Shown here piece after piece: positions 1-64,000 of a stretch of 64,000 nt of DNA. Position 1 is the stretch's first letter. Every line of letters begins with the position of its first letter. Both the position numbers and the translations under genes were made by a program. The stretch spans positions 1 through 64,000 of the forward strand of contig JAUCBJ010002359.1 in assembly GCA_032718475.1 (NCBI GenBank), in the 5' to 3' direction. The notes under the pieces were generated by a model, which had not been told where the DNA came from, did not search any database, and was given only the letters and a program-made list of their open reading frames with translations. Source of the stretch: Nemertoderma westbladi. Lineage: Eukaryota; Animalia; Xenacoelomorpha.

Positions 1-521
1 GTCACCTAACAACCAACGAAGGCAATATACATTGCCAGCCACAAAGAGAGATGAGAGGCTACAAGCCATCTCAGGGGGACGAAGGAAGCTAGCACGTGGG
101 TATCAGAGAACAGGGAGTGCCAAGGGAAGGGAGAATAGGTTAGCCAATGGTGGGGCAGTAAACCATCTGATTGGGATGCATCCATTGGCCAGGCCAAGTA
201 CTCCAGTAGCAATATTCCATATGTGTTAGTAATATAACCGTTGCCTTTATTACCTGTTGTTCAGTTGGTTTGTGTAGAGCTGTGGAAGCAAGACGGTTTA
301 GACCATCGTCGTCATTAACCGTGCTATTATTGTATACTGATTGTGCTATTATTGTATTCTGACATTACGAACAACTGCCACTAAAACTCAGTTATTCTAT
401 CGGCCTCCGGCCTTTCAGATACCACAAGCCTTTCAGCAGCCAACGGACGCGGCGACGCGTACTATCCAAACAGCAAACACACCGGTCGGGATTCCCTCGC
501 CAACTCGGGGATCCCGTCACA
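1..521 (+). mobile_element. LTR (3' or solo; left part outside the window), related to the LTRs at 13447-14004 and 62593-63188
   Basis: Ends ACCGGTCGGGAT...GATCCCGTCACA. Shares CCAATGGTGGGGCAG, GGACGCGRCGACGCGTA and the terminal motif with the reverse complement of 13447-14004. Has CCAAT, TATA-like and TCAGTT Inr-like motifs. Confidence 0.65.
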
Positions 522-13446: not shown

Positions 13447-14031
13447 TGTGACGGTATCTGAGGATCTCGACCGGTGTTTTCTCGTGTATATACGCGTCGT
13501 CGCGTCCGCCAAGTGTATGGAATAGACTGAAAGGCCGAAGGCTGGTTAAATAACAGAGTTTTGTTTATCGTTATTGATAATGTCTGATATATAAGTACTG
13601 GTATAATACAGCACAATCAGTATAGCACAATGGATAGCAGTAACGACGACCGTTTAAACCGTTTGACTTCTACACTCACTAATAACTAGTAACGGTTATA
13701 TACATATTGATTAGAAGGTTACATCTCTACCTATACTTGACTTACCAATAGATGCGCGCTAATTGATGGTGTGCTGCCCCACCATTGGTGGGTTTACCCT
13801 TTGGCCACTCCCTATTTCCTCTGGCCCTATGCTGGCTTCCCCCTGAAATATGTTGCTATATATCTCCAAATGGCACTATATTGCCCTGTTCCCTTCTGGT
13901 ATGCAATATTATGATGGATAATATTGCATACTTAATCGTAATTCGTAAATCACGATACCCCATTTTCTCACTGGGGGGTGTACAGTGGATTGGATTCGCT
14001 AACACTCCCCCCCCCCCCCATACTATCTTCC
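13447..14031 (-). mobile_element. 3' LTR (13447-14004, TGT...ACA) preceded by a polypurine tract (14005-14031)
   Basis: Minus strand reads GGGAAGATAGTATG(n)AG|TGTTAGCG...GATACCGTCACA; homologous to the LTR at 1-521. Confidence 0.75.
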
Positions 14032-14220
14032 CGGTTAGAAGATAGCGTCAACCTAATAGTGCGCTCCATTCCGCTGGAATCCAATCTAATATTGGATGTG
14101 GGATGGAATACTCTTTTCTGGGCCAGTTTTCCAGACTGGTCCCTCTGGGTCTGGTCTCACTACCCACCCTTGTTACATCTGCGAGCTAAGTTGTACCAAG
14201 GCATTTGGTGTCTCTATTTA

Positions 14221-28437: not shown

Positions 28438-28584
28438 AGCCATTATATATCATTCATTGGTGTCATTCATCTTTATATCATGATTAACTCGTAATCTTAT
28501 TGGCTCAGCCATTATATATCATTCATTGGTGTCATTCATCTTTATATCATGATTAACTCGTAATCTTATTGGCTCAGCCATTAT
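28438..28584 (+). repeat. 69-bp tandem duplication in the probable KChIP 3' UTR
   Basis: AGCCATTATATATCATTCATTGG...CTTATTGGCTC repeated at 28438 and 28507. Confidence 0.9.
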
Positions 28585-32109: not shown

Positions 32110-32553
32110 ATGTCTTCTAATTCCGATATGGTTATGCCAATAGTAAGGCATTCATTTTTTGCAGAAGATGGTGAAGCCTATATTGTTATTGATTATACAA
32201 TTTACCGTCGGGGAGATGATAAATATAAAATTGAGTTTTCTGAAAAAGCCAGGAAAGTTTTAAGCTCAATTGATATTGATGCTTCTGATAATAGTATTCA
32301 TCTCTTAGATTACAACCTGAAAGTTGAGCATGAGGGAAAATTAATCAATATCTTACTATTATCCATGATAGAGGGGTTAATTGTTATTACACAATACAAC
32401 GAAGCTGGTGAAAAGTTTGAAATACGGCTAAATCGGCATAGCCCCTACGAAATTATGTCTTTCTTTATTGTAATGATTTCAAAAGAATCCTTTGTCGAAA
32501 CTGAAGAATCAACAGATAATGTTGAATATGTTGATAATATCATTGATTCTTGA
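32110..32553 (+). CDS. Polinton hypothetical acidic protein, 147 aa
   Basis: ATG-initiated ORF in AT-rich context (AAATAATG); no recognised motif. Confidence 0.55.
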   Translation: MSSNSDMVMPIVRHSFFAEDGEAYIVIDYTIYRRGDDKYKIEFSEKARKVLSSIDIDASDNSIHLLDYNLKVEHEGKLINILLLSMIEGLIVITQYNEAGEKFEIRLNRHSPYEIMSFFIVMISKESFVETEESTDNVEYVDNIIDS

Positions 32554-32711
32554 CTTTCCCGCTATATTATAAATATTTTATGATTATTTATAAAATTTTG
32601 ATGTTTTTAAATAATCGAAAATTGTAGTAGTAATTGTATATACAGTATAACAGATTTGTTTGTTGTTGTGTATTGAGGTAATTATTTTCAATTTACTTTA
32701 AAATTTGGAAA

Positions 32712-33164
32712 TTGGATATTTTAAATGAAAAATGTCCAGTTTGCTATTCTAAGTTATTGCAACAACATCGAGATTATTATAAATGTGAAAATAAACATGC
32801 AACTTGCGTACAATGTATTGTACAATATTCCGAAATGAATAATTATTGTTCTAAAATTTGTCCTATTTGTCGCGCACCCATATCTAAGTTTAATATAAAG
32901 TTGGCAAGATACCAACCCTATTATTGGAAAGAGCTTCGCAATATAACTTATATTTCTGCGGAAAGTAATGATCCAGGAGATTTATTTACAATATTGGAGA
33001 ATATTTTTTATAGAAATGTAGTACGACGGTGTTGCTACTATATTCCTTATTTTTTTAGCAGCGAACATAAAAAAATCATTAGCGCGAAATTCTCGGGAAG
33101 TGATTTCCAAACCGCCGATGTTACCTATCATTATTTCGCGTATAAAGATGCTCACCATGCTTGA
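32712..33164 (+). CDS. Polinton RING-finger (C3HC4-type) protein; start codon uncertain
   Basis: CPVC-x13-CENKHATCVQC-x-CPICR; no in-frame ATG before the RING (the ORF track uses TTG). Confidence 0.75.
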   Translation: MDILNEKCPVCYSKLLQQHRDYYKCENKHATCVQCIVQYSEMNNYCSKICPICRAPISKFNIKLARYQPYYWKELRNITYISAESNDPGDLFTILENIFYRNVVRRCCYYIPYFFSSEHKKIISAKFSGSDFQTADVTYHYFAYKDAHHA

Positions 33165-33348
33165 AATTACATTGAAAATGAGTCTATACTATAATTGGAA
33201 ATAGCACCTTTTGTTGCAGCGAGCGTCACATACTGTAGTTGTGTCATATGTTAATTAAATATACAGTACTCTAATATTTTAGTTGCCTCAATTATTGTTA
33301 TATACATAGTAATGGTGATGGTTTATTGATATTGATATTTATATTATA

Positions 33349-34983
33349 CTAGAAAGCCCGTGGCCTTCGGCCACGGCTTTCTAGTTCACAAGCTTCTATA
33401 ATCAATCAATCAATGGACAATATCAAACATAAATAAATTAATTAATTAACTTAACAAAACTTTACATACGACTAACAGACTGATCCCGTTTTAGTTGCAG
33501 CTACATACAATAATAAACATAAGGCTTTATGTTGTAGTAGATACCTCCCAAGTAACACCTCCAATGGATTACAAATAATAAAATGGGAAAAGGTTTAAAC
33601 TGTGTGTGATATTTCCCCCTTAGTGGAAAACTGTATAACTGCAGAGTAGTGGTTAGCGTCCTCGCAAACATAATCTATAGTGCAGTAGGTCACTGCAGCA
33701 ACTCTATCGTATTAAAATGGAAGGTTTTAATTTCAGACATTTCGCCCCCTAGTGGCAGACTGCATAATTCTGCACTGGTTAGCGTCCTCCCCAAACACGA
33801 AGACTATGGTGTAGTAGTCCTCTGCCAAGTGCCAAGTATCAGCAAAAAAGCATTCATAAACAACAAAATTGTAGGTTTCCTCTTTTAGACAATTCATCCC
33901 CTAATAGCGGATGACTGGGGAACTGTAGACGATTCTGTGACTCCGTATGGTGTAGTAGATAGCTACCAAAGCATTAAAAACAACCAAATGAGATCAGGTT
34001 TTCACTATCGGACAATTCGCCCTCTAGCGGCGGACGGTGGAACTTCAGACGGCTCTGAGTATTACTTTGCAACGAGTTTGGGCGAGACCTTTCTAACAAG
34101 CTATATAATAACATAATAGCTATATAACTAACAAAACAATAAACTAACACAATAGAACAGGTTCCAGTTTTATTTTTGAGAATAATCAGCTGTTATTTGC
34201 GTCGAATTTCCCCTGGAGAGGGATGAATTAGTATTGCCCCTATCTGAGCCGATGATAAACACACACCCACACCAGACAGATAATAATCGATATTTATATT
34301 TAATAGATTTTAAATGTATGTATAATATTAGATAAAATAATAATACAGTAAGTAGGCCTACAGAAATTATCACTTTTAATATTCAGAACAGTAAAATAAT
34401 AAAAAAACTAAAATGTTATAAACCTCTCTTTCCACGCAGCCATTATTGATTGAGAAAGCAGAATTAGTCTTGGCTTGCTACTTACCTGTGCCCAGCCAGC
34501 TACGAGTTCAATAATTACCTAACGTTGCTATGATACAGATAAAAATCCTTCCCTATTCACTAACAATAGGCCCATTCGATCCTGCATGTCGAATATGACA
34601 TATTTATACACTATTTGATTTTTAATCAATAAATAATCATGCATATTTATATTAAACACTCGAATAAAATAAAAACTTTGTGAGAATGGGACACGGCGAA
34701 TCTACTCATGTTAATTTTATACCAGGTGGGATAAATGTTACCCCTCTAAATAATTAATTACCGATAGAAGAACCGAAATAATTCGATAAATTTCGCCCGA
34801 ACGAACACAAAATACGCATTCACGCAAGCAAACGCGTGAAATTAGCCTCGAGATAGCGATAGTTTACGTGCTCAGGACGAGAGCTTTCGATTGATGTATC
34901 ATTTGCTCAGATTGGTGCATGTGTGTCGGAGCGTATAGCTTGGACAGACTCACAGGCAGACAGAGGATATTTATATATATAGA
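33349..34983 (-). mobile_element. Non-autonomous Helitron, unit 1
   Basis: Minus strand starts TCTATATATATAAATATCCTCTGTCTG and ends with hairpin GCCGTGGCC-GAA-GGCCACGG then CTTTCTAG|T. Confidence 0.85.
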
Positions 34984-46100: not shown

Positions 46101-47076
46101 GATAATCTATGTTCCCGTTGTCAAAAATAAAATGATTCATGTAATCTGTGTACTGCGAAGTACGATGTTTGTTATCTTTCACTTTGCTGCTAAATTTTGT
46201 GGCTATAATAGCCCATTTGAAACAGTCATTATCAGCCGTTTGTATATTTATAACATATTGTTTACTCGATAGAGCCTTAGGTAACTCCATATAACCGTGA
46301 CCTTTATATTCCAGTGACCTACACTTGGATTCAGCTACTTTAATTTCCACTCTTAATAAAGATTTAACGCGCCACCCTGAGCCACGAGTGTTAAATATGG
46401 CTATTTTTTGTATTAATTTTTCTAGTACATACTCAAACCATGTGTCAAAACTTTCATGTGAATCTACGGTATTAACTGCACCACCTGAAGAACTAAAATA
46501 GAAAGTTTCTTCTTGGTCACCCTCTGCAAAATGTGATCGATACATGAGTATATTCACACCTAGCCAGGGTCTAAGTACATTCATTTCGCTAAGTTTTCCT
46601 AATAATAAGTTTTTGATGTGAGGTAGAATATGAACTATCGATGAATGAATATCAGGAAAATCTTCATCATTCGGAAGATTGTAAACATAGATTTCTAAAC
46701 GGTTATCGTGTGCGGCTCGTTCGAGGCTAAAAATTGATGGACCTTGACCAGATTTCAGTCTTTTTCTAGATGCGACAGTATTGTTTTGGTTCCATTGTGG
46801 TGGTCTAACATGATAATAACGTTGGTGACAGTCGTGACGTAAATAATTCTCATATAAATACTCTTTATTACAAGTAGGGCAAGTTTTTTCATACACGCAA
46901 AACTTCATTTCTTTACAACCCGTAGTTGATTCATGTCGTTTGCAAATTTCTTCACGTGAACATTTCACATGACAATTAAAACAATTAAATTCTTGAAAAT
47001 GTGATTTCAAGTGAGTTAAATAATTTCGTTTAGAAATTTGAAGAGGACAAAATGGACATTTCAATTGTTTATCCAT
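43116..47076 (-). CDS. polB: Protein-primed family B DNA polymerase, split by a 1-nt frameshift at about 44718
   Basis: N-terminal Cys/His zinc fingers, RGSGW, exonuclease FDIES and HNCNHYDLHFL, HHSHITGNYIAAACNACN insert, RKGIFPYEY. Polymerase motifs DFNSLY, KLLNNSLFGK, SDTDS. Removing one base restores YLKLDVCLLADIFENFR. Confidence 0.95.
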
Positions 47077-47629
47077 CTCTTTATTATCCTAAAAACAATT
47101 TAAAATTAATATGAATATTGTTATATATATAATCAAAAAAAATTCATAAGCTACTCAACACAAATAAAATATAATATCTAAACTTTAATTAATTTAATAT
47201 TTTCAGAATGAGCTCGATTGAATCAGTTGAGCTCTTTATATATATATTTCAAGTTTCTACTTATACCAACCAATCATAAATAACAGTTACATTGGAAACT
47301 AATATCATAAATAAAGTTGCTTTTACAACTGAATTCTTTATAATAAAATCAAGTCTAAACCAAGATGTGCATAATGTGTTTTTAATTTTCATTGATAAAG
47401 TAGGTTTTACATGCTAATGTTTTATTATGGTGGTGTAAACTCATGCATTTACATGCGAATGTTTTATACCTAATCCCATGCTCACATTAAATATAAACTA
47501 TCACCAATATTTACTCAATAAAGTCACCTTTACATGCAAATACTTTATAATAATCACGCTTTGTGATAAAAAGTTACCTTTACAAGTCAGTGTGAAACTG
47601 AAAAAGAAAAGTCTCTAGTTAATAATAAA

Positions 47630-47917
47630 TCAATCTGATACTGTTTTTATATGTTCCTTATTGTAATCTGCTACCTCTTCACTTGCTTTTGTAACTTTTA
47701 TTTTCTTTGTAGGTATAGAATCATTGTTGGGAATGGAAGATGTTTGAGATGTAGATCTGCGCTTTCTATCACTCGATGTCTCTTCGATGTATGTCTTTGG
47801 ATTAAATGTGGATGAAACTGTTTCTGGAAATGACTTATTAACCTTAAACTTCCAAGTTGGTTGATATAGAATCGCGAAACCGTCTGCTATATCAGTTGAT
47901 GAAACCTTTTCCATCAT
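47630..47917 (-). CDS. Polinton hypothetical protein (may start near 48015 if the A8 run was originally A9)
   Basis: The frame is open upstream to the poly-A run at 47999-48006; NLS-like RKRR and KKIK. Confidence 0.4.
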   Translation of the reverse strand: MMEKVSSTDIADGFAILYQPTWKFKVNKSFPETVSSTFNPKTYIEETSSDRKRRSTSQTSSIPNNDSIPTKKIKVTKASEEVADYNKEHIKTVSD

Positions 47918-48007
47918 ATCATAGAGAAACTCTATATGAGGTATGTCTTTATCATAATGTAACTGTAAATATTTGCTTTCCTTGTCTGTAATAATTACTT
48001 TTTTTTC

Positions 48008-48673
48008 TTATACATTTATTTTTACTTTAAGTCGGTCAGATAAAGCTTTATCGCTCGTATCTAGCTCTGAAAAGACACCTTCGTTACTAATTTCATAATT
48101 CCATTCATACCACAATGAATTTACATCCGATGCTGTTAAGTTAAACCCATTATAATACCTAAGACCAATAGCATCAGAATATCTAGCTGAAATCTCCCAT
48201 AGTCCCATATAAGTCGTTCCTTTATATTTGCTTACAAAACCAACAAAAGATGGGTTGGTTAAATTAACAACAGAACACTGATTTATTATTTTGAGTGGTG
48301 GTGATAACAATTCAAATATTTCTGTCTTACTCTGAAGCAATAAATTAATGAGTGATTTGTTTAGAATTTGACATTTGCCTTGCTTCTGAATATATACGTT
48401 TTCAGTAATAACACAGGTGGAAATATTTAACTTTCCTCTTGTAAATTCTATATTAGGATAAATATTACCTCTTGAAACTGGTGATTCCTTTTGTCGGTTG
48501 ATTAATATTTCTAAGACGTCTAGAAGGTAGAGTGTATCCCGGTAAGAGAAGCATGTTGTTACATTGCTATTGCTTGAGTGTAATATAAAGTACTTGCCAT
48601 AAACAATACTACAGGTATATTTATTACATGTAAATTTCCAAGTATTGCTTGAAGTTTTTTTAAATAAATCCAT
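48008..48673 (-). CDS. Polinton hypothetical protein, 221 aa, possible PC4-like ssDNA-binding C-terminal domain
   Basis: FVSKYKGTTYMGLWE...NGFNLT loosely resembles the PC4 beta-hairpin and GISL pattern. Confidence 0.5.
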   Translation of the reverse strand: MDLFKKTSSNTWKFTCNKYTCSIVYGKYFILHSSNSNVTTCFSYRDTLYLLDVLEILINRQKESPVSRGNIYPNIEFTRGKLNISTCVITENVYIQKQGKCQILNKSLINLLLQSKTEIFELLSPPLKIINQCSVVNLTNPSFVGFVSKYKGTTYMGLWEISARYSDAIGLRYYNGFNLTASDVNSLWYEWNYEISNEGVFSELDTSDKALSDRLKVKINV

Positions 48674-49223
48674 AATTAGAATGAAAACTATTTTGAAAAA
48701 TAAAAACTAAATAAATGATTATTAGAATGTAAAACTTCTGTTTATATGGTTGCTTTAATACAACAGAGTGACTTACAGTGAGGAATATAGTAGCTTTGTG
48801 TAACAGATGCAACGTGTACAGCTAAATTTATTACATTAGCGTGAGTTAGAGAGTGAAATAGCAGTAACATGTAACAGATGCAACGTGAACAATGCTAGCC
48901 CTGTCATTCTAACTTATATTTAACTTAGTTGACCGACCAGTCACATCGATAAAAGAAATCATTATTATTAATAGTCGAATTAATGTATTCTATGCTATAG
49001 TAATTATGTTAAGGAACTAGAAGCTATTTATAAACATCTGCTACCAGTGATGAAGATGAAGAATTCAATGACTATGGTATAACTCAGATATTTATCGCCT
49101 TTTTCTCTCGAGGTTGGATGGAAGACTGATTGGTGAGTTGTGAGGAGTTATAACGGTGCCGGGTTCGAACCCTGTTGAATATTTTGTTATCTGAAAAATT
49201 GCAAAATTAAATTTAGTTACTGG

Positions 49224-49609
49224 TGAAAAATAGCGATTTGAAAAATAGTAGACGTTACCTGTAGACACTTCTAGCATCTGTAAAATAAAGGTTGGTGAAA
49301 AATTGCGATTTGAAAAATAGTAGAAGTTACCTGATGCTAAGTGTAGACACCCGAACACCTGTAAAATAAAGGTTGGTGATTGGATGCAGTACTAGCGTTG
49401 GGTGACTAATAACGCCTCTAGCGGAATAAGCGGGAACTTGAGAAGTTACCATGGTTACGGATGAAATGCTGACATCTGATTGGTTGAAATAATAACGACT
49501 ACTGCTAAAGGTTGAAATGGTGGCTTCTGATTGGATGCAGTACTAGAAATGGATGGTAATGATGGGCTACGGGTGACCATGAAGCCGTGTCACACAATTA
49601 TATACTACT
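49224..49609 (-). repeat. Polinton right terminal inverted repeat
   Basis: Ends ...CACACAATTATATACTACT followed by the TSD GTCGCC. Confidence 0.95.
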
Positions 49610-49730
49610 GTCGCCAACCGCCCCCCATGTCCTTAATCAGAACCTCATCAGTCTGTCCAGTCTGCATTCGGTGCTCTTGAACACCCGCTGCACTAAGAGA
49701 AAGCTTATCTGCCAAGGCAGTCAGCTCACC
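49610..49730 (-). mobile_element. N-terminal continuation of the RTE-like LINE endonuclease, cut off by the satellite
   Basis: GTCGCCAACCGCCCCCCAT matches the uninterrupted copy at 11393-11411; minus strand encodes ...AAGVQEHR (AP endonuclease QE motif). Confidence 0.8.
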
Positions 49731-52700
49731 TTGTTGGGGGAACCCAAGTAGGAACAATTACTGAACACATTGGCATTCTATTGTTGGAGGAACCCAAGTA
49801 GGAACAATTACTGAACACATTGGCATTCTATTGTTGGGGGAACCCAAGTAGGAACAATTACTGAACACATTGGCATTATATTGTTGGGGGAACCCAAGTA
49901 GGAACAATTACTGAACACATTGGCATTCTATTGTTGGGGGAACCCAAGTAGGAACAATTACTGAACACATTGGCATTCTATTGTTGGGGGAACCCAAGTA
50001 GGAACAATTACTGAACACATTGGCATTATATTGTTGGGGGAACCCAAGTAGGAACAATTACTGAACACATTGGCATTCTATTGTTGGGGGAACCCAAGTA
50101 GGAACAATTACTGAACACATTGGCATTCTATTGTTGGGGGAACCCAAGTAGGAACAATTACTGAACACATTGGCATTACATTGTTGGGGGAACCCAAGTA
50201 GGAACAATTACTGAACACATTGGCATTCTATTGTTGGGGGAACCCAAGTAGGAACAATTACTGAACACATTGGCATTATATTGTTGGGGGAACCCAAGTA
50301 GGAACAATTACTGAACACATTGGCATTCTATTGTTGGGGGAACCCAAGTAGGAACAATTACTGAACACATTGGCATTACATTGTTGGGGGAACCCAAGTA
50401 GGAACAATTACTGAACACATTGGCATTCTATTGTTGGGGGAACTCAAGTAGGAACAATTACTGAACACATTGGCATTATATTGTTGGGGGAACCCAAGTA
50501 GGAACAATTACTGAACACATTGGCATTCTATTGTTGGGGGAACCCAAGTAGGAACAATTACTGAACACATTGGCATTATATTGTTGGGGGAACCCAAGTA
50601 GGAACAATTACTGAACACATTGGCATTCTATTGTTGAGGGAACCCAAGTAGGAACAATTACTGAACACATTGGCATTATATTGTTGGGGGAACCCAAGTA
50701 GGAACAATTACTGAACACATTGGCATTCTATTGTTGGGGGAACCCAAGTAGGAACAATTACTGAACACATTGGCATTCTATTGTTGGGGGAACACAAGTA
50801 GGAACAATTACTGAACACATTGGCATTCTATTGTTGGGGGAACCCAAGTAGGAACAATTACTGAACACATTGGCATTCTATTGTTGGGGGACCCAAGTAG
50901 GAACAATTACTGAACACATTGGCATTCTATTGTTGGGGGACCCAAGTAGGAACAATTACTGAACACATTGGCATTCTATTGTTGGGGAACCCAAGTAGGA
51001 ACAATTACTGAACACATTGGCATTCTATTGTTGGGGAACCCAAGTAGGAACAATTACTGAACACATTGGCATTCTATTGTTGGAGGAACCCAAGTAGGAA
51101 CAATTACTGAACACATTGGCATTCTATTGTTGGGGGAACCCAAGTAGGAACAATTACTGAACACATTGGCATTCTATTGTTGGGGGAACCCAAGTAGGAA
51201 CAATTACTGAACACATTGGCATTATATTGTTGGGGGAACCCAAGTAGGAACAATTACTGAACACATTGGCATTCTATTGTTGGGGGAACCCAAGTAGGAA
51301 CAATTACTGAACACATTGGCATAATATTGTTGGGGGACCCAAGTAGGAACAATTACTGAACACATTGGCATTATATTGTTGGGGGAACCCAAGTAGGAAC
51401 AATTACTGAACACATTGGCATTCTATTGTTGGGGGAACCCAAGTAGGAACAATTACTGAACACATTGGCATTCTATTGTTGGGGGAACCCAAGTAGGAAC
51501 AATTACTGAACACATTGGCATTCTATTGTTGGGGGAACCCAAGTAGGAACAATTACTGAACACATTGGCATTCTATTGTTGCGGGAACCCAAGTAGGAAC
51601 AATTACTGAACACATTAGCATTCTATTGTTGGGGGACCCAAGTAGGACCAATTACTGAACACATTGGCATTCTATTGTTGGGGGAACCCAAGTAGGAACA
51701 ATTACTGAACACATTGGCATTCTATTGTTGGGGAACCCAAGTAGGAACAATTACTGAACACATTGGCATTCTATTGTTGGGGGACCCAAGTAGGAACAAT
51801 TACTGAACACATTGGCATTCTATTGTTGGGGAACCCAAGTAGGAACAATTACTGAACACATTGGCATTATATTGTTGGGGGAACCCAAGTAGGAACAATT
51901 ACTGAACACATTGGCATTCTATTGTTGGGGAACCCAAGTAGGAACAATTACTGAACACATTGGCATTCTATTGTTGGGGGACCCAAGTAGGAACAATTAC
52001 TGAACACATTGGCATTCTATTGTTGGGGGAACCCAAGTAGGAACAATTACTGAACACATTGGCATTCTATTGTTGGGGAACCCAAGTAGGAACAATTACT
52101 GAACACATTGGCATTCTATTGTTGGGGGAACCCAAGTAGGAACAATTACTGAACACATTGGCATTCTATTGTTGGGGGAACCCAAGTAGGAACAATTACT
52201 GAACACATTGGCATTCTATTGTTGGGGGACCCAAGTAGGAACAATTACTGAACACATTGGCATTCTATTGTTGGGGGAACCCAAGTAGGAACAATTACTG
52301 AACACATTGGCATTCTATTGTTGGGGGAACCCAAGTAGGAACAATTACTGAACACATTGGCATTCTATTGTTGGGGAACCCAAGTAGGAACAATTACTGA
52401 ACACATTGGCATTCTATTGTTGGGGGACCCAAGTAGGAACAATTACTGAACACATTGGCATTCTATTGTTGGGGGACCCAAGTAGGAACAATTACTGAAC
52501 ACATTGGCATTCTATTGTTGGGGGACCCAAGTAGGAACAATTACTGAACACATTGGCATTCTATTGTTGGGGGAACCCAAGTAGGAACAATTACTGAACA
52601 CATTGGCATTCTATTGTTGGGGAACCCAAGTAGGAACAATTACTGAACACATTGGCATTCTATTGTTGGGGGACCCAAGTAGGAACAATTACTGAACACA

Positions 52701-55700
52701 TTGGCATTCTATTGTTGGGGGAACCCAATTAGGAACAATTACTGAACACATTGGCATTCTATTGTTGGGGGAACCCAAGTAGGAACAATTACTGAACACA
52801 TTGGCATTCTATTGTTGGGGGACCCAAGTAGGAACAATTACTGAACACATTGGCATTCTATTGTTGGGGAACCCAAGTAGGAACAATTACTGAACACATT
52901 GGCATTCTATTGTTGGGGAACCCAAGTAGGAACAATTACTGAACAAATTGGCATTCTATTGTTGGGGAACCCAAGTAGGAACAATTACTGAACACATTGG
53001 CATTCTATTGTTGGGGAACCCAAGTAGGAACAATTACTGAACACATTGGCATTCTATTGTTGGGGGAACCCAAGTAGGAACAATTACTGAACACATTGGC
53101 ATTCTATTGTTGGGGGACCCAAGTAGGAACAATTACTGAACACATTGGCATTATATTGTTGGGGAACCCAAGTAGGAACAATTACTGAACACATTGGCAT
53201 TCTATTGTTGGGGAACCCAAGTAGGAACAATTACTGAACACATTGGCATTCTATTGTTGGGGGAACCCAAGTAGGAACAATTACTGAACACATTGGCATT
53301 CTATTGTTGGGGGAACCCAAGTAGGAACAATTACTGAACACATTGGCATTCTATTGTTGGGGGACCCAAGTAGGAACAATTACTGAACACATTGGCATTA
53401 TATTGTTGGGGAACCCAAGTAGGAACAATTACTGAACACATTGGCATTCTATTGTTGGGGAACCCAAGTAGGAACAATTACTGAACACATTGGCATTCTA
53501 TTGTTGGGGAACCCAAGTAGGAACAATTACTGAACACATTGGCATTCTATTGTTGGGGGACCCAAGTAGGAACAATTACTGAACACATTGGCATTCTATT
53601 GTTGGGGAACCCAAGTAGGAACAATTACTGAACACATTGGCATTATATTGTTGGGGAACCCAAGTAGGAACAATTACTGAACACATTGGCATTCTATTGT
53701 TGGGGAACCCAAGTAGGAACAATTACTGAACAAATTGGCATTCTATTGTTGGGAGAACCCAAGTAGGAACAATTACTGAACACATTGGCATTCTATTGTT
53801 GGGGGACCCAAGTAGGAACAATTACTGAACACATTGGCATTATATTGTTGGGGGAACCCAAGTAGGAACAATTACTGAACACATTGGCATTCTATTGTTG
53901 GGGGAACCCAAGTAGGAACAATTACTGAACACATTGGCATTCTATTGTTGGGGAACCCAAGTAGGAACAATTACTGAACACATTGGCATTCTATTGTTGG
54001 GGGACCCAAGTAGGAACAATTACTGAACACATTGGCATTCTATTGTTGGGGAACCCAAGTAGGAACAATTACTGAACAAATTGGCATTCTATTGTTGGGA
54101 GAACCCAAGTAGGAACAATTACTGAACACATTGGCATTCTATTGTTGGGGGACCCAAGTAGGAACAATTACTGAACACATTGGCATTATATTGTTGGGGG
54201 AACCCAAGTAGGAACAATTACTGAACACATTGGCATTCTATTGTTGGGGGAACCCAAGTAGGAACAATTACTGAACACATTGGCATTCTATTGTTGGGGA
54301 ACCCAAGTAGGAACAATTACTGAACACATTGGCATTCTATTGTTGGGGGAACCCAAGTAGGAACAATTACTGAACACATTGGCATTCTATTGTTGGGGGA
54401 CCCAAGTAGGAACAATTACTGAACACATTGGCATTCTATTGTTGGGGAACCCAAGTAGGAACAATTACTGAACACATTGGCATTATATTGTTGGGGAACC
54501 CAAGTAGGAACAATTACTGAACACATTGGCATTCTATTGTTGGGGAACCCAAGTAGGAACAATTACTGAACACATTGGCATTCTATTGTTGGGGAACCCA
54601 AGTAGGAACAATTACTGAACACATTGGCATTCTATTGTTGGGGGACCCAAGTAGGAACAATTACTGAACACATTGGCATTCTATTGTTGGGGAACCCAAG
54701 TAGGAACAATTACTGAACACATTGGCATTATATTGTTGGGGAACCCAAGTAGGAACAATTACTGAACACATTGGCATTCTATTGTTGGGGAACCCAAGTA
54801 GGAACAATTACTGAACAAATTGGCATTCTATTGTTGGGAGAACCCAAGTAGGAACAATTACTGAACACATTGGCATTCTATTGTTGGGGGACCCAAGTAG
54901 GAACAATTACTGAACACATTGGCATTCTATTGTTGGGGGAACCCAAGTAGGAACAATTACTGAACACATTGGCATTCTATTGTTGGGGGACCCAAGTAGG
55001 AACAATTACTGAACACATTGGCATTCTATTGTTGGGGAACCCAAGTAGGAACAATTACTGAACACATTGGCATTCTATTGTTGGGGGACCCAAGTAGGAA
55101 CAATTACTGAACACATTGGCATTCTATTGTTGGGGAACCCAAGTAGGAACAATTACTGAACACATTGGCATTATATTGTTGGGGAACCCAAGTAGGAACA
55201 ATTACTGAACACATTGGCATTCTATTGTTGGGGAACCCAAGTAGGAACAATTACTGAACACATTGGCATTCTATTGTTGGGGAACCCAAGTAGGAACAAT
55301 TACTGAACACATTGGCATTCTATTGTTGGGGGACCCAAGTAAGAACAATTACTGAACACATTGGCATTCTATTGTTGGGGAACCCAAGTAGGAACAATTA
55401 CTGAACACATTGGCATTATATTGTTGGGGAACCCAAGTAGGAACAATTACTGAACACATTGGCATTCTATTGTTGGGGAACCCAAGTAGGAACAATTACT
55501 GAACAAATTGGCATTCTATTGTTGGGAGAACCCAAGTAGGAACAATTACTGAACACATTGGCATTCTATTGTTGGGGGACCCAAGTAGGAACAATTACTG
55601 AACACATTGGCATTCTATTGTTGGGGGAACCCAAGTAGGAACAATTACTGAACACATTGGCATTCTATTGTTGGGGGAACCCAAGTAGGAACAATTACTG

Positions 55701-58700
55701 AACACATTGGCATTATATTGTTGGGGGAACCCAAGTAGGAACAATTACTGAACACATTGGCATTCTATTGTTGGGGGAACCCAAGTAGGAACAATTACTG
55801 AACACATTGGCATTATATTGTTGGGGGAACCCAAGTAGGAACAATTACTGAACACATTGGCATTCTATTGTTGGGGGACCCAAGTAGGAACAATTACTGA
55901 ACACATTGGCATTATATTGTTGGGGGAACCCAAGTAGGAACATTTACTGAACACATTGGCATTCTATTGTTGGGGGACCCAAGTAGGAACAATTACTGAA
56001 CACATTGGCATTCTATTGTTGGGGGAACCCAAGTAGGAACAATTACTGAACACATTGGCATTCTATTGTTGGGGAACCCAAGTAGGAACAATTGCTGAAC
56101 ACATTGGCATTATATTGTTGGGGGAACCCAAGTAGGAACAATTACTGAACACATTGGCATTCTATTGTTGGGGGAACCCAAGTAGGAACAATTACTGAAC
56201 ACATTGGCATTCTATTGTTGGGGGAATCCAAGTAGGAACAATTACTGAACACATTGGCATTCTATTGTTGGGGGAACACAAGTAGGAACAATTACTGAAC
56301 ACATTGGCATTCTATTGTTGGGGGAACCCAAGTAGGAACAATTACTGAACACATTGGCATTCTATTGTTGGGGGACCCAAGTAGGAACAATTACTGAACA
56401 CATTGGCATTCTATTGTTGGGGGAACCCAAGTAGGAAAAATTACTGAACAAATTGGCATTCTATTGTTGGGGGAACCCAAGTAGGAACAATTACTGAACA
56501 CATTGGCATTCTATTGTTGGGGGAACCCAAGTAGGAACAATTACTGAACACATTGGCATTCTATTGTTGGGGGAACCCAAGTAGGAACAATTACTGAACA
56601 CATTGTCATTATATTGTTGGGGGAACCCAAGTAGGAACAATTACTGAACACATTGGCATTCTATTGTTGGGGGACCCAAGTAGGAACAATTACTGAACAC
56701 ATTGGCATTCTATTGTTGGGGGAACCCAAGTAGGAAAAATTACTGAACACATTGGCATTCTATTGTTGGGGGAACCCAAGTAGGAACAATTACTGAACAC
56801 ATTGGCATTCTATTGTTGGGGGAACCCAAGTAGGAACAATTACTGAACACATTGGCATTATATTGTTGGGGGAACCCAAGTAGGAACAATTACTGAACAC
56901 ATTGGCATTCTATTGTTGGGGGAACCCAAGTAGGAACAATTGCTGAACACATTGGCATTATATTGTTGGGGGAACCCAAGTAGGAACAATTACTGAACAC
57001 ATTGGCATTCTATTGTTGGGGGAACCCAAGTAGGAACAATTACTGAACACATTGGCATTCTATTGTTGGGGGAATCCAAGTAGGAACAATTACTGAACAC
57101 ATTGGCATTCTATTGTTGGGGGAACACAAGTAGGAACAATTACTGAACACATTGGCATTCTATTGTTGGGGGAACCCAAGTAGGAACAATTACTGAACAC
57201 ATTGGCATTCTATTGTTGGGGAACCCAAGTAGGAACAATTGCTGAACACATTGGCATTATATTGTTGGGGGAACCCAAGTAGGAACAATTACTGAACACA
57301 TTGGCATTCTATTGTTGGGGGAACCCAAGTAGGAACAATTACTGAACACATTGGCATTCTATTGTTGGGGGAATCCAAGTAGGAACAATTACTGAACACA
57401 TTGGCATTCTATTGTTGGGGGAATCCAAGTAGGAACAATTACTGAACACATTGGCATTCTATTGTTGGGGGAATCCAAGTAGGAACAATTACTGAACACA
57501 TTGGCATTCTATTGTTGGGGGAATCCAAGTAGGAACAATTACTGAACACATTGGCATTCTATTGTTGGGGGAATCCAAGTAGGAACAATTACTGAACACA
57601 TTGGCATTCTATTGTTGGGGGAATCCAAGTAGGAACAATTACTGAACACATTGGCATTCTATTGTTGGGGAACCCAAGTAGGAACAATTGCTGAACACAT
57701 TGGCATTATATTGTTGGGGGAATCCAAGTAGGAACAATTACTGAACACATTGGCATTCTATTGTTGGGGGAATCCAAGTAGGAACAATTACTGAACACAT
57801 TGGCATTCTATTGTTGGGGGAATCCAAGTAGGAACAATTACTGAACACATTGGCATTCTATTGTTGGGGGAATCCAAGTAGGAACAATTACTGAACACAT
57901 TGGCATTCTATTGTTGGGGGAATCCAAGTAGGAACAATTACTGAACACATTGGCATTCTATTGTTGGGGGAACCCAAGTAGGAAAAATTACTGAACAAAT
58001 TGGCATTCTATTGTTGGGGGAACCCAAGTAGGAACAATTACTGAACACATTGGCATTCTATTGTTGGGGGAACCCAAGTAGGAACAATTACTGAACACAT
58101 TGGCATTCTATTGTTGGGGGAACCCAAGTAGGAACAATTACTGAACACATTGTCATTATATTGTTGGGGGAACCCAAGTAGGAACAATTACTGAACACAT
58201 TGGCATTCTATTGTTGGGGGAACACAAGTAGGAACAATTACTGAACACATTGGCATTCTATTGTTGGGGGAACCCAAGTAGGAACAATTACTGAACACAT
58301 TGTCATTATATTGTTGGGGGAACCCAAGTAGGAACAATTACTGAACACATTGGCATTCTATTGTTGGGGGAATCCAAGTAGGAACAATTACTGAACACAT
58401 TGGCATTCTATTGTTGGGGGACCCAAGTAGGAACAATTACTGAACACATTGGCATTCTATTGTTGGGGGAATCCAAGTAGGAACAATTACTGAACACATT
58501 GGCATTCTATTGTTGGGGGACCCAAGTAGGAACAATTACTGAACACATTGTCATTATATTGTTGGGGGAACCCAAGTAGGAACAATTACTGAACACATTG
58601 GCATTCTATTGTTGGGGGAACCCAAGTAGGAACAATTACTGAACACATTGTCATTATATTGTTGGGGGAACCCAAGTAGGAACAATTACTGAACACATTG

Positions 58701-61700
58701 GCATTCTATTGTTGGGGGAATCCAAGTAGGAACAATTACTGAACACATTGGCATTCTATTGTTGGGGGACCCAAGTAGGAACAATTACTGAACACATTGG
58801 CATTCTATTGTTGGGGGAACCCAAGTAGGAACAATTACTGAACACATTGGCATTCTATTGTTGGGGGAACCCAAGTAGGAACAATTACTGAACACATTGT
58901 CATTATATTGTTGGGGGAACCCAAGTAGGAACAATTACTGAACACATTGGCATTCTATTGTTGGGGGAATCCAAGTAGGAACAATTACTGAACACATTGG
59001 CATTCTATTGTTGGGGGACCCAAGTAGGAACAATTACTGAACACATTGGCATTCTATTGTTGGGGGAATCCAAGTAGGAACAATTACTGAACACATTGGC
59101 ATTCTATTGTTGGGGGACCCAAGTAGGAACAATTACTGAACACATTGTCATTATATTGTTGGGGGAACCCAAGTAGGAACAATTACTGAACACATTGGCA
59201 TTCTATTGTTGGGGGAACCCAAGTAGGAACAATTACTGAACACATTGTCATTATATTGTTGGGGGAACCCAAGTAGGAACAATTACTGAACACATTGGCA
59301 TTCTATTGTTGGGGGAATCCAAGTAGGAACAATTACTGAACACATTGGCATTCTATTGTTGGGGGACCCAAGTAGGAACAATTACTGAACACATTGGCAT
59401 TCTATTGTTGGGGGAATCCAAGTAGGAACAATTACTGAACACATTGTCATTATATTGTTGGGGGAACCCAAGTAGGAACAATTACTGAACACATTGGCAT
59501 TCTATTGTTGGGGGAACCCAAGTAGGAACAATTACTGAACACATTGTCATTATATTGTTGGGGGAACCCAAGTAGGAACAATTACTGAACACATTGGCAT
59601 TCTATTGTTGGGGGAATCCAAGTAGGAACAATTACTGAACACATTGGCATTCTATTGTTGGGGGACCCAAGTAGGAACAATTACTGAACACATTGGCATT
59701 CTATTGTTGGGGGAATCCAAGTAGGAACAATTACTGAACACATTGGCATTCTATTGTTGGGGGACCCAAGTAGGAACAATTACTGAACACATTGGCATTA
59801 TATTGTTGGGGGAACACAAGTAGGAACAATTACTGAACACATTGGCATTCTATTGTTGGGGGACCCAAGTAGGAACAATTACTGAACACATTGGCATTCT
59901 ATTGTTGGGGGAATCCAAGTAGGAACAATTACTGAACACATTGGCATTCTATTGTTGGGGGACCCAAGTAGGAACAATTACTGAACACATTGGCATTCTA
60001 TTGTTGGGGGAATCCAAGTAGGAACAATTACTGAACACATTGTCATTATATTGTTGGGGGAACCCAAGTAGGAACAATTACTGAACACATTGGCATTCTA
60101 TTGTTGGGGGAACCCAAGTAGGAACAATTACTGAACACATTGTCATTATATTGTTGGGGGAACCCAAGTAGGAACAATTACTGAACACATTGGCATTCTA
60201 TTGTTGGGGGAATCCAAGTAGGAACAATTACTGAACACATTGGCATTCTATTGTTGGGGGACCCAAGTAGGAACAATTACTGAACACATTGGCATTCTAT
60301 TGTTGGGGGAATCCAAGTAGGAACAATTACTGAACACATTGGCATTCTATTGTTGGGGGACCCAAGTAGGAACAATTACTGAACACATTGGCATTCTATT
60401 GTTGGGGGACCCAAGTAGGAACAATTACTGAACACATTGGCATTCTATTGTTGGGGGACCCAAGTAGGAACAATTACTGAACACATTGGCATTCTATTGT
60501 TGGGGGAACCCAAGTAGGAAAAATTACTGAACAAATTGGCATTCTATTGTTGGGGGAACCCAAGTAGGAACAATTACTGAACACATTGGCATTCTATTGT
60601 TGGGGAACCCAAGTAGGAACAATTACTGAACACATTGGCATTCTATTGTTGGGGGAACCCAAGTAGGAACAATTACTGAACACATTGTCATTATATTGTT
60701 GGGGGAACCCAAGTAGGAACAATTACTGAACACATTGGCATTCTATTGTTGGGGGAACCCAAGTAGGAACAATTACTGAACACATTGGCATTCTATTGTT
60801 GGGGGAATCCAAGTAGGAACAATTACTGAACACATTGGCATTCTATTGTTGGGGGAACCCAAGTAGGAACAATTACTGAACACATTGGCATTCTATTGTT
60901 GGGGGAACCCAAGTAGGAACAATTACTGAACACATTGGCATTCTATTGTTGGGGGAACCCAAGTAGGAACAATTACTGAACACATTGTCATTATATTGTT
61001 GGGGGAACCCAAGTAGGAACAATTACTGAACACATTGGCATTCTATTGTTGGGGGAACCCAAGTAGGAACAATTACTGAACACATTGGCATTCTATTGTT
61101 GGGGGAATCCAAGTAGGAACAATTACTGAACACATTGGCATTCTATTGTTGGGGGACCCAAGTAGGAACAATTACTGAACAAATTGGCATTCTATTGTTG
61201 GGGGAACCCAAGTAGGAACAATTACTGAACACATTGGCATTCTATTGTTGGGGGAATCCAAGTAGGAACAATTACTGAACACATTGGCATTCTATTGTTG
61301 GGGGACCCAAGTAGGAAAAATTACTGAACAAATTGGCATTCTATTGTTGGGGGAACCCAAGTAGGAACAATTACTGAACACATTGGCATTCTATTGTTGG
61401 GGGAACACAAGTAGGAACAATTACTGAACACATTGGCATTCTATTGTTGGGGGAATCCAAGTAGGAACAATTACTGAACACATTGGCATTCTATTGTTAG
61501 GGGAACACCAGTAGGAACAATTTCTGAACACATTGGCATTCTATTGTTGGGGGAATCCAAGTAGGAACAATTACTGAACACATTGGCATTCTATTGTTGG
61601 GGGAATCCAAGTAGGAACAATTACTGAACACATTGGCATTCTATTGTTGGGGGAACCCAAGTAGGAAAAATTACTGAACAAATTGGCATTCTATTGTTGG

Positions 61701-62592
61701 GGGAACCCAAGTAGGAACAATTACTGAACACATTGGCATTCTATTGTTGGGGGAACCCAAGTAGGAACAATTACTGAACACATTGGCATTCTATTGTTGG
61801 GGGAACCCAAGTAGGAACAATTACTGAACACATTGTCATTACATTGTTGGGGAACCCAAGTAGGAACAATTACTGAACACATTGGCATTCTATTGTTGGG
61901 GGAACCCAAGTAGGAAAAATTACTGAACAAATTGGCATTCTATTGTTGGGGGAACCCAAGTAGGAACAATTACTGAACACATTGGCATTCTATTGTTAGG
62001 GGAACACCAGTAGGAACAATTTCTGAACACATTGGCATTCTATTGTTGGGGGAATCCAAGTAGGAACAATTACTGAACACATTGGCATTCTATTGTTGGG
62101 GGAATCCAAGTAGGAACAATTACTGAACACATTGGCATTCTATTGTTGGGGGAACCCAAGTAGGAAAAATTACTGAACAAATTGGCATTCTATTGTTGGG
62201 GGAACCCAAGTAGGAACAATTACTGAACACATTGGCATTCTATTGTTGGGGGAACCCAAGTAGGAACAATTACTGAACACATTGGCATTCTATTGTTGGG
62301 GGAACCCAAGTAGGAACAATTACTGAACACATTGTCATTACATTGTTGGGGGAACCCAAGTAGGAACAATTACTAAACACATTGGCATTATATTGTTGGG
62401 GGAATCCAAGTAGGAACAATTACTGAACACATTGGCATTCTATTGTTGGGGGAACCCAAGTAGGAAAAATTACTGAACAAATTGGCATTCTATTGTTGGG
62501 GGAACCCAAGTAGGAACAATTACTGAACACATTGGCATTCTATTGTTGGGGGACCCAAGTAGGAACAATTACTGAACACATTGGCATTCTAT
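49731..62592 (+). repeat. Satellite, 50-bp unit TTGTTGGGGGAACCCAAGTAGGAACAATTACTGAACACATTGGCATTCTA, about 257 copies, with 49-bp variants
   Basis: Direct periodicity, highly homogeneous, with zoned variants. Confidence 0.98.
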
Positions 62593-63188
62593 TGTGGATA
62601 TATCTAATATTGGGGGATACGAGGTTAATCACAAATTGGGGGATATTGGGGTCTAATATTGGGGGATACGAGGTTAATCACAAATTAATCTCGTATCACC
62701 CCCAATAACGGGGACAACATATAGCCCCAAAGAGCCACACAAAAGAGGTTAGAGGTCAAGCTAACTCGAGAAGGGAAGTGACAGCAGCGGGGCCGGGGGG
62801 GGGGGGGAAACACTCCCACAGAGGTGGGAGCCGAGAATTAGGTTGTTAGCCAATGAGGGGCGAGGGAGAGCATCCGCTAGGTAGTAAGGCCACAGTAGCG
62901 TAGGGGTGAATATATATTACCAGTTAATTATATTACCGTTCAGTTAACTCAGTCACACAGTGGGGACCAGTGACATTTTGTACCATCACCGTAACGTCAC
63001 CTAACTTCACCACTACTACCTGTACAATCCATTAACATTTATCTGTATATTACCATTAAACTGTGCTATCATATTTTATACCATACCGCCTATATCAATA
63101 TCAGAACAACAACAAACTATTATCTTTTCTCAATTATACGGTGATGTGTAACGAAATAAACCGGTCGGGATCCCCTGATCCCGTCACA
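62593..63188 (+). mobile_element. 5' LTR (TGT...ACA, ~596 bp) of an LTR retrotransposon
   Basis: TGTGGATA...ACCGGTCGGGATCCCCTGATCCCGTCACA. CCAAT near 62849, TATATA at 62911, TCAGTT at 62940, ATTAAA at ~63031-63060; followed by an ORF. Confidence 0.7.
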
Positions 63189-63241
63189 GTACAAAATACC
63201 TGAAAACTGTGACTGCCAGCCACCACGATAAAAGTTAAAAG

Positions 63242-64000
63242 ATGAGCACAGAGCCCCAAGATCTAGAGGGAGAGAGGACACCGCCGCGGACCCCGGACGA
63301 TACCAACGAAACGATCCGTGAGGCCGCGACACGACGGTATCGACCCGCAACGCCGGACTCGCCGGAGAGAGACGATCCGGCAGCCCAAGCGGAGGGTGGC
63401 CGTCTACCACAACGAGGGATTAGCGAGTCGAGAGGACGAGTCGACGCACGATGGTGGTCGAAGTGCCGATGTCGCCGGCCAGCCACAGGCCGAGGGCGAC
63501 GGACGGCCCACCGGAACGGTGACGGTGGGGCCGTCGGTACGACGCCGAACCAGGAGGGGAGGAGGAGAGGTCGACGACGAGGACGTCGGAACCAGTGATC
63601 GGCTCCGACGAGCCTACAACGTGACGAAGAAACAGCTCAGGGAGGCCAGAGAGGGAGCAAAGGTAGACCAAGGGAAGTTGAGCCAGCGACTAGGTGAGTC
63701 AAATAAACATTTTAGATACCTAGTTCGCTTCGGACAGGGAGAACTAGAACTATTTGAACTGTGGCGATCCGGGATTATGGAGCCCCAGATAGTGTACATA
63801 GGGCCGTATTTAGTGGATGCTAGGGGAATTAAGTTAGTGGGTTGGGCAGACCCGCACGAGGGCGAATCCGAGATTAACCCCGAGGATTCGGTCTCGTCGG
63901 TTAGCGAGAACCCCAGAAAGCGGGGGAAAGTTAGCAGGACAGAGAGGCGACGGGGGTCCGTCGCGACCGATAAGTCCGCTACATCCTCCACAAAAGCAAG
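63242..64000 (+). pseudogene. Probable gag-like ORF with a frameshift, running off the window
   Basis: ATG 53 nt after the LTR. A second frame is open from about 63560 to the end (EEEVDDEDVGTSDRLRRAYN...EINPEDSVSSVSE); purine-rich coding-like composition. Confidence 0.45.

What the first reader, a model, noticed from the sequence alone, without database searches (positions are those of the whole stretch)
62940..63215. LTR retrotransposon with no tRNA PBS but a Tf1-like self-priming RNA fold
Seen: the 9 nt right after the LTR end (GTACAAAAT, 63189-63197) do not start with TGG and are the exact complement of ATTTTGTAC (62975-62983) in the presumed R region. The next 10 nt (CATCACCGTA, 62984-62993) pair perfectly with U5 TACGGTGATG (63137-63146). 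A 7-bp U5 hairpin lies between (CGGGATC-CCCT-GATCCCG, 63166-63183). An outer helix CAGTCACA (62950-62957) / TGTGACTG (63208-63215) nests correctly. Known: fission yeast Tf1 and the Tf1/sushi group prime reverse transcription by annealing the mRNA 5' end to the PBS and cleaving it with RNase H at such a junction. Inference: cleavage after 62983 would give a self-primer. With TATA at 62911 and Inr-like motifs at 62940/62949, the primer would be ~33-42 nt and bipartite, longer than the 11 nt of Tf1. The clade of this element cannot be seen in the window.
Basis: partly seen in the sequence, partly recalled or inferred. Interest (0 to 1): 0.8.

Follow-up and report, generated by a model that had tools for sequence, protein, structure and literature searches.

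The report
Likely self-priming BEL/Pao-like retrotransposon
The front end of an abundant animal jumping gene, probably of the BEL/Pao group, has no tRNA landing site; instead that site matches a stretch of the element's own terminal repeat, so it likely starts copying itself with a piece cut from its own RNA, a trick proven so far only in fission yeast.

Summary
All four helices are in the sequence as described. Two related solo LTRs in the window end at the same GTCACA, fixing the LTR end at 63188. No TGG follows. A 9-nt PBS complement flush with a 10-bp helix arose in 0 of 20,000 shuffles and in none of 27 tRNA-primed BEL LTRs. The second helix is kept in three LTR families with three double changes, not significant at n=3. 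An Inr-like motif 41-42 nt upstream suggests a primer of about 41 nt; the start site is unmapped. Against: folding gives the R/PBS helix about zero probability, and the outer helix loses to a local hairpin. R/PBS covariation could not be tested. The clade is probably BEL/Pao, not Tf1/sushi: only a short Gag linker motif supports this (E=0.006), and pol lies outside the window. The scan already noted BEL/Pao self-priming in other genomes (e1-7803594; spliced form e1-7882409, e1-7811049). This element is the unspliced form. Verdict: likely self-priming (about 0.65), a new variant of a known mechanism.

The parts
62593..63188 (+). 5' LTR (TG...CA, 596 nt), sitting at the end of a 50-bp satellite array (49731-62595); start inferred, end confirmed
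62911..62918 (+). TATA-like element, 29-31 nt upstream of the Inr-like A at 62942; a second TATA-like run starts at 62929
   Evidence: same 30-nt spacing in solo LTR B (233 to 263)
62940..62945 (+). Inr-like motif, predicted transcription start at 62942 (not mapped)
   Evidence: Inr consensus recalled
62942..62983 (+). predicted self-primer (42 nt); its last 9 nt (62975-62983) are complementary to the PBS
   Evidence: inference
62950..62957 (+). R segment able to pair with leader 63208-63215 (outer helix); a near-copy of the LTR end; not kept in sister LTRs
62984..62993 (+). 5' arm of the R/U5 helix, flush with the primer end; predicted cut site lies between 62983 and 62984
63137..63146 (+). 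3' arm of the R/U5 helix (pair probability about 0.99)
63148..63157 (+). imperfect second partner for the primer end inside U5 (competes with the PBS in the minimum-energy fold)
63160..63167 (+). 8-nt block invariant in three LTR families, containing a 6-nt palindrome; role unknown
63166..63183 (+). U5 terminal hairpin, 7 bp; longer stem and loop in solo LTR B, two mismatches in solo LTR C
63189..63197 (+). non-tRNA primer-binding site directly after the LTR end
63206..63215 (+). leader segment that pairs either with the LTR end and PBS start (63183-63190) or with R 62950-62957
63242..63998 (+). gag-like 5' region, broken in this copy: the ATG frame stops at 63598 and a second frame (63267-63998) runs off the window
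   Evidence: no homologue found
63873..63896 (+). I-x-P-x-D-S-V-S motif followed by an S/R-rich linker, as in the Gag N-terminus of a subset of BEL/Pao elements
1..521 (+). sister LTR B (cut by the window start; followed by flanking DNA, no PBS)
13447..14170 (-). sister solo LTR C (far end approximate; no target duplication found)

Best explanation
This is the 5' LTR and leader of an abundant animal LTR retrotransposon, probably BEL/Pao, whose primer site has no tRNA match and pairs with its own R region, so it likely primes reverse transcription with the 5' end of its own RNA. Shown: LTR end, absence of TGG, exact 9-bp R/PBS match flush with a 10-bp R/U5 helix, a U5 hairpin, and retention of the R/U5 helix in three LTR families. 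Inferred: transcription starts near 62942; Gag or another chaperone shifts the RNA from a closed fold (primer end paired in U5, PBS start held in a leader hairpin) to the primed fold; the element's RNase H cuts between 62983 and 62984, as shown for Tf1; the capped piece of about 41 nt stays paired by its last 9 nt and primes minus-strand strong-stop DNA over 63188 to 62984.
For: Geometry 0 of 20,000 shuffles. 27 of 27 TGG-type BEL LTRs score at most 10 on the same statistic versus 19 here, with PBS complement at most 6 nt versus 9. R/U5 helix pairs in 26 of 30 cells over three LTRs, with 3 double changes; slid controls pair 22-53% versus 88%. At the one junction position where solo LTR C mismatches, most other copies carry the pairing base (depth 571.7 of 603.2 in X1, 429.4 of 429.4 in X2, 763.3 of 812.6 in X3, 88.6 of 88.6 in X4), and no variant at 3% or more is listed over C's predicted primer end 13652-13659 while 13630-13651 has many. 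Inr-to-junction distance 42 (this LTR) and 41 (B), and 40 in a C subfamily (read by eye from a loose end). Two other post-LTR sequences in sister families share the first 3-4 bases, then differ and show no TGG, which does not fit one shared host primer. Primer-leader duplex -19.4 kcal/mol in isolation. Confirmed BEL/Pao elements with the same Gag motif (L126, L130, L138, L059) also lack TGG after the LTR.
Against: In the ViennaRNA ensemble the R/PBS helix has probability about 0 at 10-37 C and for longer fragments; the primed fold is -51.2 versus -57.4 kcal/mol (no coaxial stacking or pseudoknots in the model). The 9-bp duplex is weak (7 A-U pairs, -7.0 kcal/mol). Covariation is not significant (75 of 500 shuffles reach 3 double changes) and the double changes are transitions of the kind CpG decay makes. 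B has one mismatch in the helix and its own fold does not use it. The prediction written beforehand for family C could not be tested: no contig other than C's own locus reached its LTR end. The helical part before the Gag motif does not match the BEL profile (130 of 1000 shuffles score as well). No pol, 3' LTR or transcript was seen.
Confidence: 0.65

Rival explanations
1. Same self-priming fold, but the element is a Ty3/gypsy (Tf1/sushi-like or Gmr1-like) element and the Gag motif match is incidental; it would then be a new member of a known self-priming group.
For: The LTR end fits the CGTNACA end listed for rGmr1 and resembles the Sushi end in PMC3601003 Table 3. The window's motif score (16.4 bits) is below all four held-out BEL/Pao elements (24.6-43.8) and the region before the motif does not match. 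The motif-bearing BEL LTRs fetched here are T-rich, contain introns and look unlike this LTR.
Against: The motif with its S/R-rich linker outscored all background among 12,673 ORFs (best background 10.7 bits) and 1000 of 1000 shuffles; the window frame is cut off before the helix that follows the motif, which lowers its score. No gypsy control set was available, so specificity against gypsy is untested.
Confidence: 0.2
2. The primer is the same R-derived RNA but is not made by RNase H cutting in cis: it is a short, prematurely ended or host-cut transcript of about 41 nt from any LTR of the family (including solo LTRs) that anneals to the PBS in trans.
For: About 41 nt is in the range of promoter-proximal paused or terminated Pol II transcripts (own knowledge). 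The family is very abundant (4707, 2435, 2723 and 44 contigs laid in four runs). It would avoid the unfavourable cis fold.
Against: It does not explain why a conserved R/U5 helix starts exactly at the primer's 3' end in three families; a free primer also prefers the U5 partner in the model.
Confidence: 0.12
3. The functional structure is the closed fold: a hairpin spanning the LTR end and the leader (63183-63213), like the Conserved Hairpin Site of fungal GalEa copia elements, and the R/PBS match is secondary; priming uses an unidentified host RNA or tRNA fragment.
For: That hairpin has probability 0.99, includes the last LTR bases and a palindromic PBS start, as described for GalEa (PMC5445492 passages). 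No host tRNA set was available to exclude a fragment primer.
Against: It leaves the 9+10 flush match unexplained (0 of 20,000). No Rfam tRNA, snRNA or spliced-leader match at E up to 10. Post-LTR bases vary between sister families.
Confidence: 0.15
4. Splice-junction priming as noted by earlier scan reports: the primer is made by removing an intron inside the LTR.
For: It fits other BEL/Pao loci here: L130 gives 11 Watson-Crick pairs across a GT-AG junction versus 8 unspliced; L138 11 versus 8.
Against: For the window no GT-AG junction improves on the unspliced 9 nt (best spliced 0 strict, 4 with G-U).
Confidence: 0.03

Closest known systems
Tf1/Tf2 (Schizosaccharomyces pombe), Tj1, Tosmo1-3 and the Tf1/sushi chromoviruses
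   Same: No tRNA site; PBS directly after the LTR pairs with an R segment; further LTR duplexes and a U5 stem-loop surround it (PMC10085805, PMC7175516, PMC4600332 passages).
   Different: Tf1's primer is the first 11 nt of the RNA; here the 9 pairing bases are predicted to lie about 33 nt inside it. The R/U5 helix here is 42 nt away from the PBS rather than adjacent. Gag N-terminus resembles BEL/Pao; no chromodomain or pol could be checked.
Belpaoviridae (BEL/Pao) as described by ICTV
   Same: LTR length within 0.2-1.2 kb, TG...CA ends, animal host; Gag linker motif shared with Pfam-confirmed Pao elements.
   Different: ICTV gives an 18-nt PBS for host tRNA-Arg or -Gly (PMC8742986 whole text); absent here.
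Plant TAR (Ty1/copia) and Tcn1 (gypsy) lineages
   Same: Self-priming predicted from LTR/PBS complementarity, i.e. already proposed outside Tf1/sushi (PMC6317226 passages).
   Different: Plant hosts, other superfamilies; primer length and helices not compared here.
Fungal GalEa Conserved Hairpin Site; bivalve TRIMs
   Same: No canonical PBS; a hairpin at or near the LTR end.
   Different: Those papers found no LTR sequence complementary to the site, or proposed no mechanism; here there is an exact R complement.
BEL/Pao self-priming and splice-junction priming noted earlier by this scan (e1-7803594, e1-7882409, e1-7811049; unchecked AI notes)
   Same: BEL/Pao-type element, no tRNA site, PBS complementary to its own LTR.
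   Different: Another genome; here the complement is unspliced, flush with an R/U5 helix, in a TATA/Inr-type LTR.

Membership tests
Tf1/sushi group | No tRNA-complementary PBS | tested here: met
   No TGG in 63189-63260; no Rfam tRNA match; host tRNA fragments not testable
Tf1/sushi group | PBS complementary to a segment of the 5' LTR | tested here: met
   9 nt exact
Tf1/sushi group | Self-primer is the extreme 5' end of the RNA | tested here: inconclusive
   TATA/Inr spacing predicts a start 33 nt upstream of the pairing bases; no RNA data
Tf1/sushi group | Three-duplex pretzel with PBS-adjacent duplexes | tested here: inconclusive
   Leader/LTR-end duplex and U5 hairpin are PBS-adjacent; the R/U5 helix is not; central duplex disfavoured in the model
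Tf1/sushi group | Ty3/gypsy chromovirus pol with chromodomain | not testable with these tools
   pol lies beyond 64000; no genome held; Gag motif points elsewhere
Tf1/sushi group | RNase H cleavage releases the primer | not testable with these tools
   needs biochemistry
Belpaoviridae (BEL/Pao) | LTRs of 0.2-1.2 kb | tested here: met
   596 nt; start inferred
Belpaoviridae (BEL/Pao) | 18-nt PBS for host tRNA-Arg or tRNA-Gly (ICTV) | tested here: not met
   note that Pfam-confirmed Pao elements L126, L130, L138 and L059 also fail it, so the feature is not universal
Belpaoviridae (BEL/Pao) | Pao-type pol (PF05380, RT clade, domain order) | not testable with these tools
   outside the window
Belpaoviridae (BEL/Pao) | Gag N-terminal P-x-D-S-[VAI]-S motif with S/R-rich linker (diagnostic trait of a subset, recalled, not a formal criterion) | tested here: inconclusive
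   16.4 bits, E=0.006, above 12,673-ORF background but below held-out members; upstream part does not match; no gypsy control
Splice-junction-primed BEL/Pao (scan notes) | PBS pairs with an exon-exon joint inside the LTR | tested here: not met

The most novel reading that the evidence does not exclude
A whole lineage of animal BEL/Pao elements has independently arrived at Tf1-style self-priming, with a capped primer of about 41 nt cut at a flush R/PBS-R/U5 junction, and a built-in two-state switch (primer end parked in U5 and PBS closed by a leader hairpin, versus primed) that times reverse transcription; with the splice-junction forms, tRNA-free priming would be a general trait of one BEL/Pao branch.
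Probability: 0.35. Interest if true: 0.78.

Novelty: new variant of a known kind. Interest (0 to 1): 0.55.

Why it matters
Self-priming has been demonstrated only for Tf1 and predicted for its relatives and some plant lineages; ICTV describes BEL/Pao as tRNA-primed. If this element is BEL/Pao and self-primes, tRNA-independent priming arose again in a third LTR superfamily, with a much longer primer than Tf1's. It would explain why LTR finders report 'no PBS' for many animal elements, free such elements from host control through tRNA fragments (inference), and give a sharp, cheap test: post-LTR bases should track each family's own R segment.

Tried and rejected
No genome is held for the window, so pol, the 3' LTR and full-length copies were unavailable. 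No RNA holder listed: no evidence on expression or start site. Gag searches found nothing: Pfam, word-indexed searches, HMMER over 1.84 billion representatives, ESM Atlas, viral contigs. The U5-end pattern found nothing in viral contigs or metagenome contigs; a looser pattern gave 2 chance matches in phage genes. The Pao RNase H pattern found 0 viral contigs. The covariation test on family C was undecided. Rfam: 0 at gathering level in the window, 4 weak matches judged chance near the LTR. ARAGORN: 0 tRNAs in the window and only 2 doubtful ones in the fetched loci, so no real tRNA-fragment test. The sequence supplement of PMC3118150, which holds published BEL/Pao elements and could settle clade and covariation, was not readable (50 characters). 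Metagenome records could not be extended. The bacterial promoter scan does not apply to a eukaryote. The B and C pair listing printed was off register and was replaced. The sum (-57.1) is not a valid energy and is not used. Splice-junction priming rejected for this copy. A poly(A) signal could not be placed: AATAAA at 63155 and ATTAAA at 63056 are not kept in B or C, so the R/U5 border is unknown.

Full report
Observation. The window ends in the 5' part of an LTR retrotransposon lying at the end of a 12.9-kb array of a 50-bp satellite (49731-62595). The LTR end is fixed independently of the missing 3' LTR: a pattern for the U5 end matches three places in the window (0 expected). The two others are sister LTRs, B (1-521) and C (13447 to about 14170, minus strand), and all three sequences diverge immediately after GTCACA. 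After 63188 there is no TGG for at least 72 nt, so there is no site for a mature tRNA's CCA end (established knowledge).

Chance. With the LTR shuffled (dinucleotides kept), a 9-nt complement of the first post-LTR bases appeared in 0.28% of 20,000 shuffles, and a complement plus flush second helix totalling 19 bp in none. The statistic was chosen after seeing the feature, so I applied it to real LTRs. A recalled Pao RNase H pattern fetched 120 metagenome loci (of about 670 estimated; flanks for 80) and 18 loci from genome contigs. Of 36 LTR pairs examined, 4 were dropped for unclear ends, 27 had TGG sites and scored at most 10 with a complement of at most 6 nt, and 5 had no TGG and scored at most 10 (one of these, L058, has a truncated LTR). 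The window scored 19. Most TGG loci come from one assembly, so they are not 27 independent lineages.

Conservation. The family is abundant: 4707, 2435, 2723 and 44 contigs laid in four DNA runs from at most three samples. In the three-LTR alignment the R/U5 helix is paired in 26 of 30 cells with three double changes, and the U5 hairpin in 19 of 21 cells with none. The shuffle control is not significant (75 of 500), and the double changes are transitions that CpG decay could produce, so this is support of modest weight. At the junction base where C itself mismatches, nearly all other laid copies have the pairing base, and no variant at 3% or more is listed across C's predicted primer end, while the helix arm carries minor variants. 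All three LTRs have AC just before the helix, matching the GT that starts the PBS, but their 8-mers differ. I wrote down the predicted PBS for B and C and tested C; no contig except C's own locus reached its LTR end, so the test was undecided. Two other post-LTR sequences seen share the first 3-4 bases with this copy and then differ. One of them is complementary over 8 nt to an R variant of a C subfamily seen, one base off the expected register; the two contigs are not linked, so this is a hint only (read by eye).

Primer length. A TATA-like run at 62911-62918 lies about 30 nt before an Inr-like A at 62942; B has the same spacing. The Inr-to-junction distance is 42 nt here and 41 in B, and 40 in a C subfamily (by eye); solo C itself lacks a clear motif there. 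A second TATA-like run at 62929 would give a start near 62959 and a 25-nt primer. No RNA run was listed, so the start is a prediction.

Folding. The region folds better than shuffles (z = -2.4). The R/U5 helix and U5 hairpin have pair probabilities near 1 (one terminal hairpin pair excepted), but the R/PBS helix has about 0 and the outer helix 0.01. The model prefers a closed state: the primer end pairs with 63148-63157 and the leader pairs with 63183-63190, covering the first two PBS bases. The primed fold is 6.2 kcal/mol higher. The model omits coaxial stacking, pseudoknots and protein chaperones. In Tf1 the flanking duplexes join PBS-adjacent sequence to LTR sequence (PMC10085805), which the leader/LTR-end duplex here resembles, so it may coexist with the primer duplex as a pseudoknot rather than compete; I could not compute that.

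Clade. pol is outside the window and no genome is held. The gag-like region is broken in this copy and has no detectable homologue. It carries an I-x-P-x-D-S-V-S motif followed by an S/R-rich linker, which I recalled from BEL/Pao Gag. The strict motif occurred in 7 of 120 metagenome loci, each 3.2-3.6 kb upstream of the RNase H motif, and in 4 of 18 further loci. Five such elements tested are Pfam-confirmed Pao elements. A profile from 16 sequences (9 of 10 proteins plus 7 loci) scored the window frame 17.4 bits, above 1000 of 1000 shuffles, but the part before the motif did not match. A shorter profile ranked the window directly below the 11 motif-bearing elements (four held out: 24.6-43.8 bits) at 16.4 bits, E = 0.006, and above all other ORFs of 12,673 (best 10.7). 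No gypsy control was available. I put BEL/Pao at about 0.7 and do not file it as a member, since ICTV's tRNA criterion is not met and pol is unseen.

Relatives without tRNA sites. L126, L130, L138 and L059 also lack TGG after the LTR. Following earlier scan notes I tested splice junctions: L130 and L138 gain from 8 to 11 strict pairs across a GT-AG joint (any GT-AG allowed, so chance is not small); L059 pairs 13 of 14 by eye but scored only 7 in the script, which stops at the first mismatch; L126 showed nothing. The window gains nothing from splicing. So it is the unspliced form, with an LTR unlike those T-rich, intron-bearing LTRs.

Mechanism. Most likely (0.65): Tf1-like self-priming with a primer of about 41 nt, cut at 62983/62984 by the element's RNase H after a switch from the closed to the primed fold. 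Shown steps are the sequence relations; start site, fold, cut and enzyme are inferred from Tf1. Rivals: same primer supplied in trans (0.12), leader hairpin with an unknown host primer (0.15), splice junction (0.03). The gypsy-clade rival (0.2) concerns identity, not mechanism, and overlaps the main reading.

Literature. Tf1 mechanism: passages of PMC7175516, PMC4600332, PMC10085805. Predicted self-priming in plant TAR and Tcn1: passages of PMC6317226 and PMC2864245. PBS-less elements: passages of PMC5445492, PMC6934838. LTR ends: passages of PMC3601003. BEL/Pao: PMC8742986 whole text; passages of PMC554778, PMC3118150, PMC6238403 (no occurrence of PBS or tRNA in their main texts), PMC8220671, PMC9094657. 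The primary papers of Levin, Lin and Levin, and Butler were seen only in reference lists. Nine searches listed no paper whose title or shown abstract reports self-priming in BEL/Pao; the library lacks most subscription journals, two searches used a single spelling of BEL/Pao, and the sequence supplement of PMC3118150 could not be read. The scan itself has noted the idea before in other genomes; those are unchecked notes, not support.

Verdict. Real feature, far beyond chance, most simply read as self-priming; new variant of a known kind. Interest 0.55: held down by the unseen pol, the untested R/PBS covariation, the unfavourable computed fold and earlier notes of the same idea; it would rise to about 0.78 if clade and covariation are confirmed.

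Noticed in passing
window 31049-49613: 393-nt inverted repeats (99%) enclose about 18 kb with an integrase (PF00665, E 9.5e-11), a P-loop ATPase-like ORF and several long unassigned ORFs: Polinton/Maverick-like element.
   Followed up: no
window 63160-63167; 481-488; 13468-13475: An 8-nt block with a 6-nt palindrome is invariant in three LTR families whose surroundings differ; could be a dimerisation or integrase-related signal.
   Followed up: partly
window 62608-62707: U3 begins with a repeated 26-nt unit and a long hairpin (62657-62707); solo LTR C has a different hairpin at a similar place.
   Followed up: no
window 63426-63533 and 63804-63965: Summed contig depth is far higher here than over the LTR body, suggesting many related families or non-autonomous derivatives share these gag segments.
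   Followed up: no
window 521-1205 and 14220-14600: Small elements with terminal inverted repeats (MITE-like); LTR B ends directly against the first.
   Followed up: no
window 1862-6836, 7112-9051, 15050-25987, 49731-62595: Four large tandem arrays with periods 40, 52, 33 and 50 nt; the 33-nt array has a higher-order period.
   Followed up: no
window 26614-30897: Broken LINE-like remains: endonuclease domain (PF14529) and a weak DUF6451 match.
   Followed up: no
L130 about 1000-1880; L138 about 1000-1790; L059: Pao elements whose PBS pairs better with a spliced LTR junction; in L130 and L138 the predicted primer ends right before an AATAAA.
   Followed up: partly
L126, L128: Pao-type elements with identical LTR pairs, no TGG after the LTR and no self-complement found by either test (L128 not tested for splicing): priming unexplained.
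   Followed up: partly
L121-L138: Animal or algal-type BEL/Pao elements sit in contigs of bacterial and archaeal genome bins, most likely host contamination.
   Followed up: no
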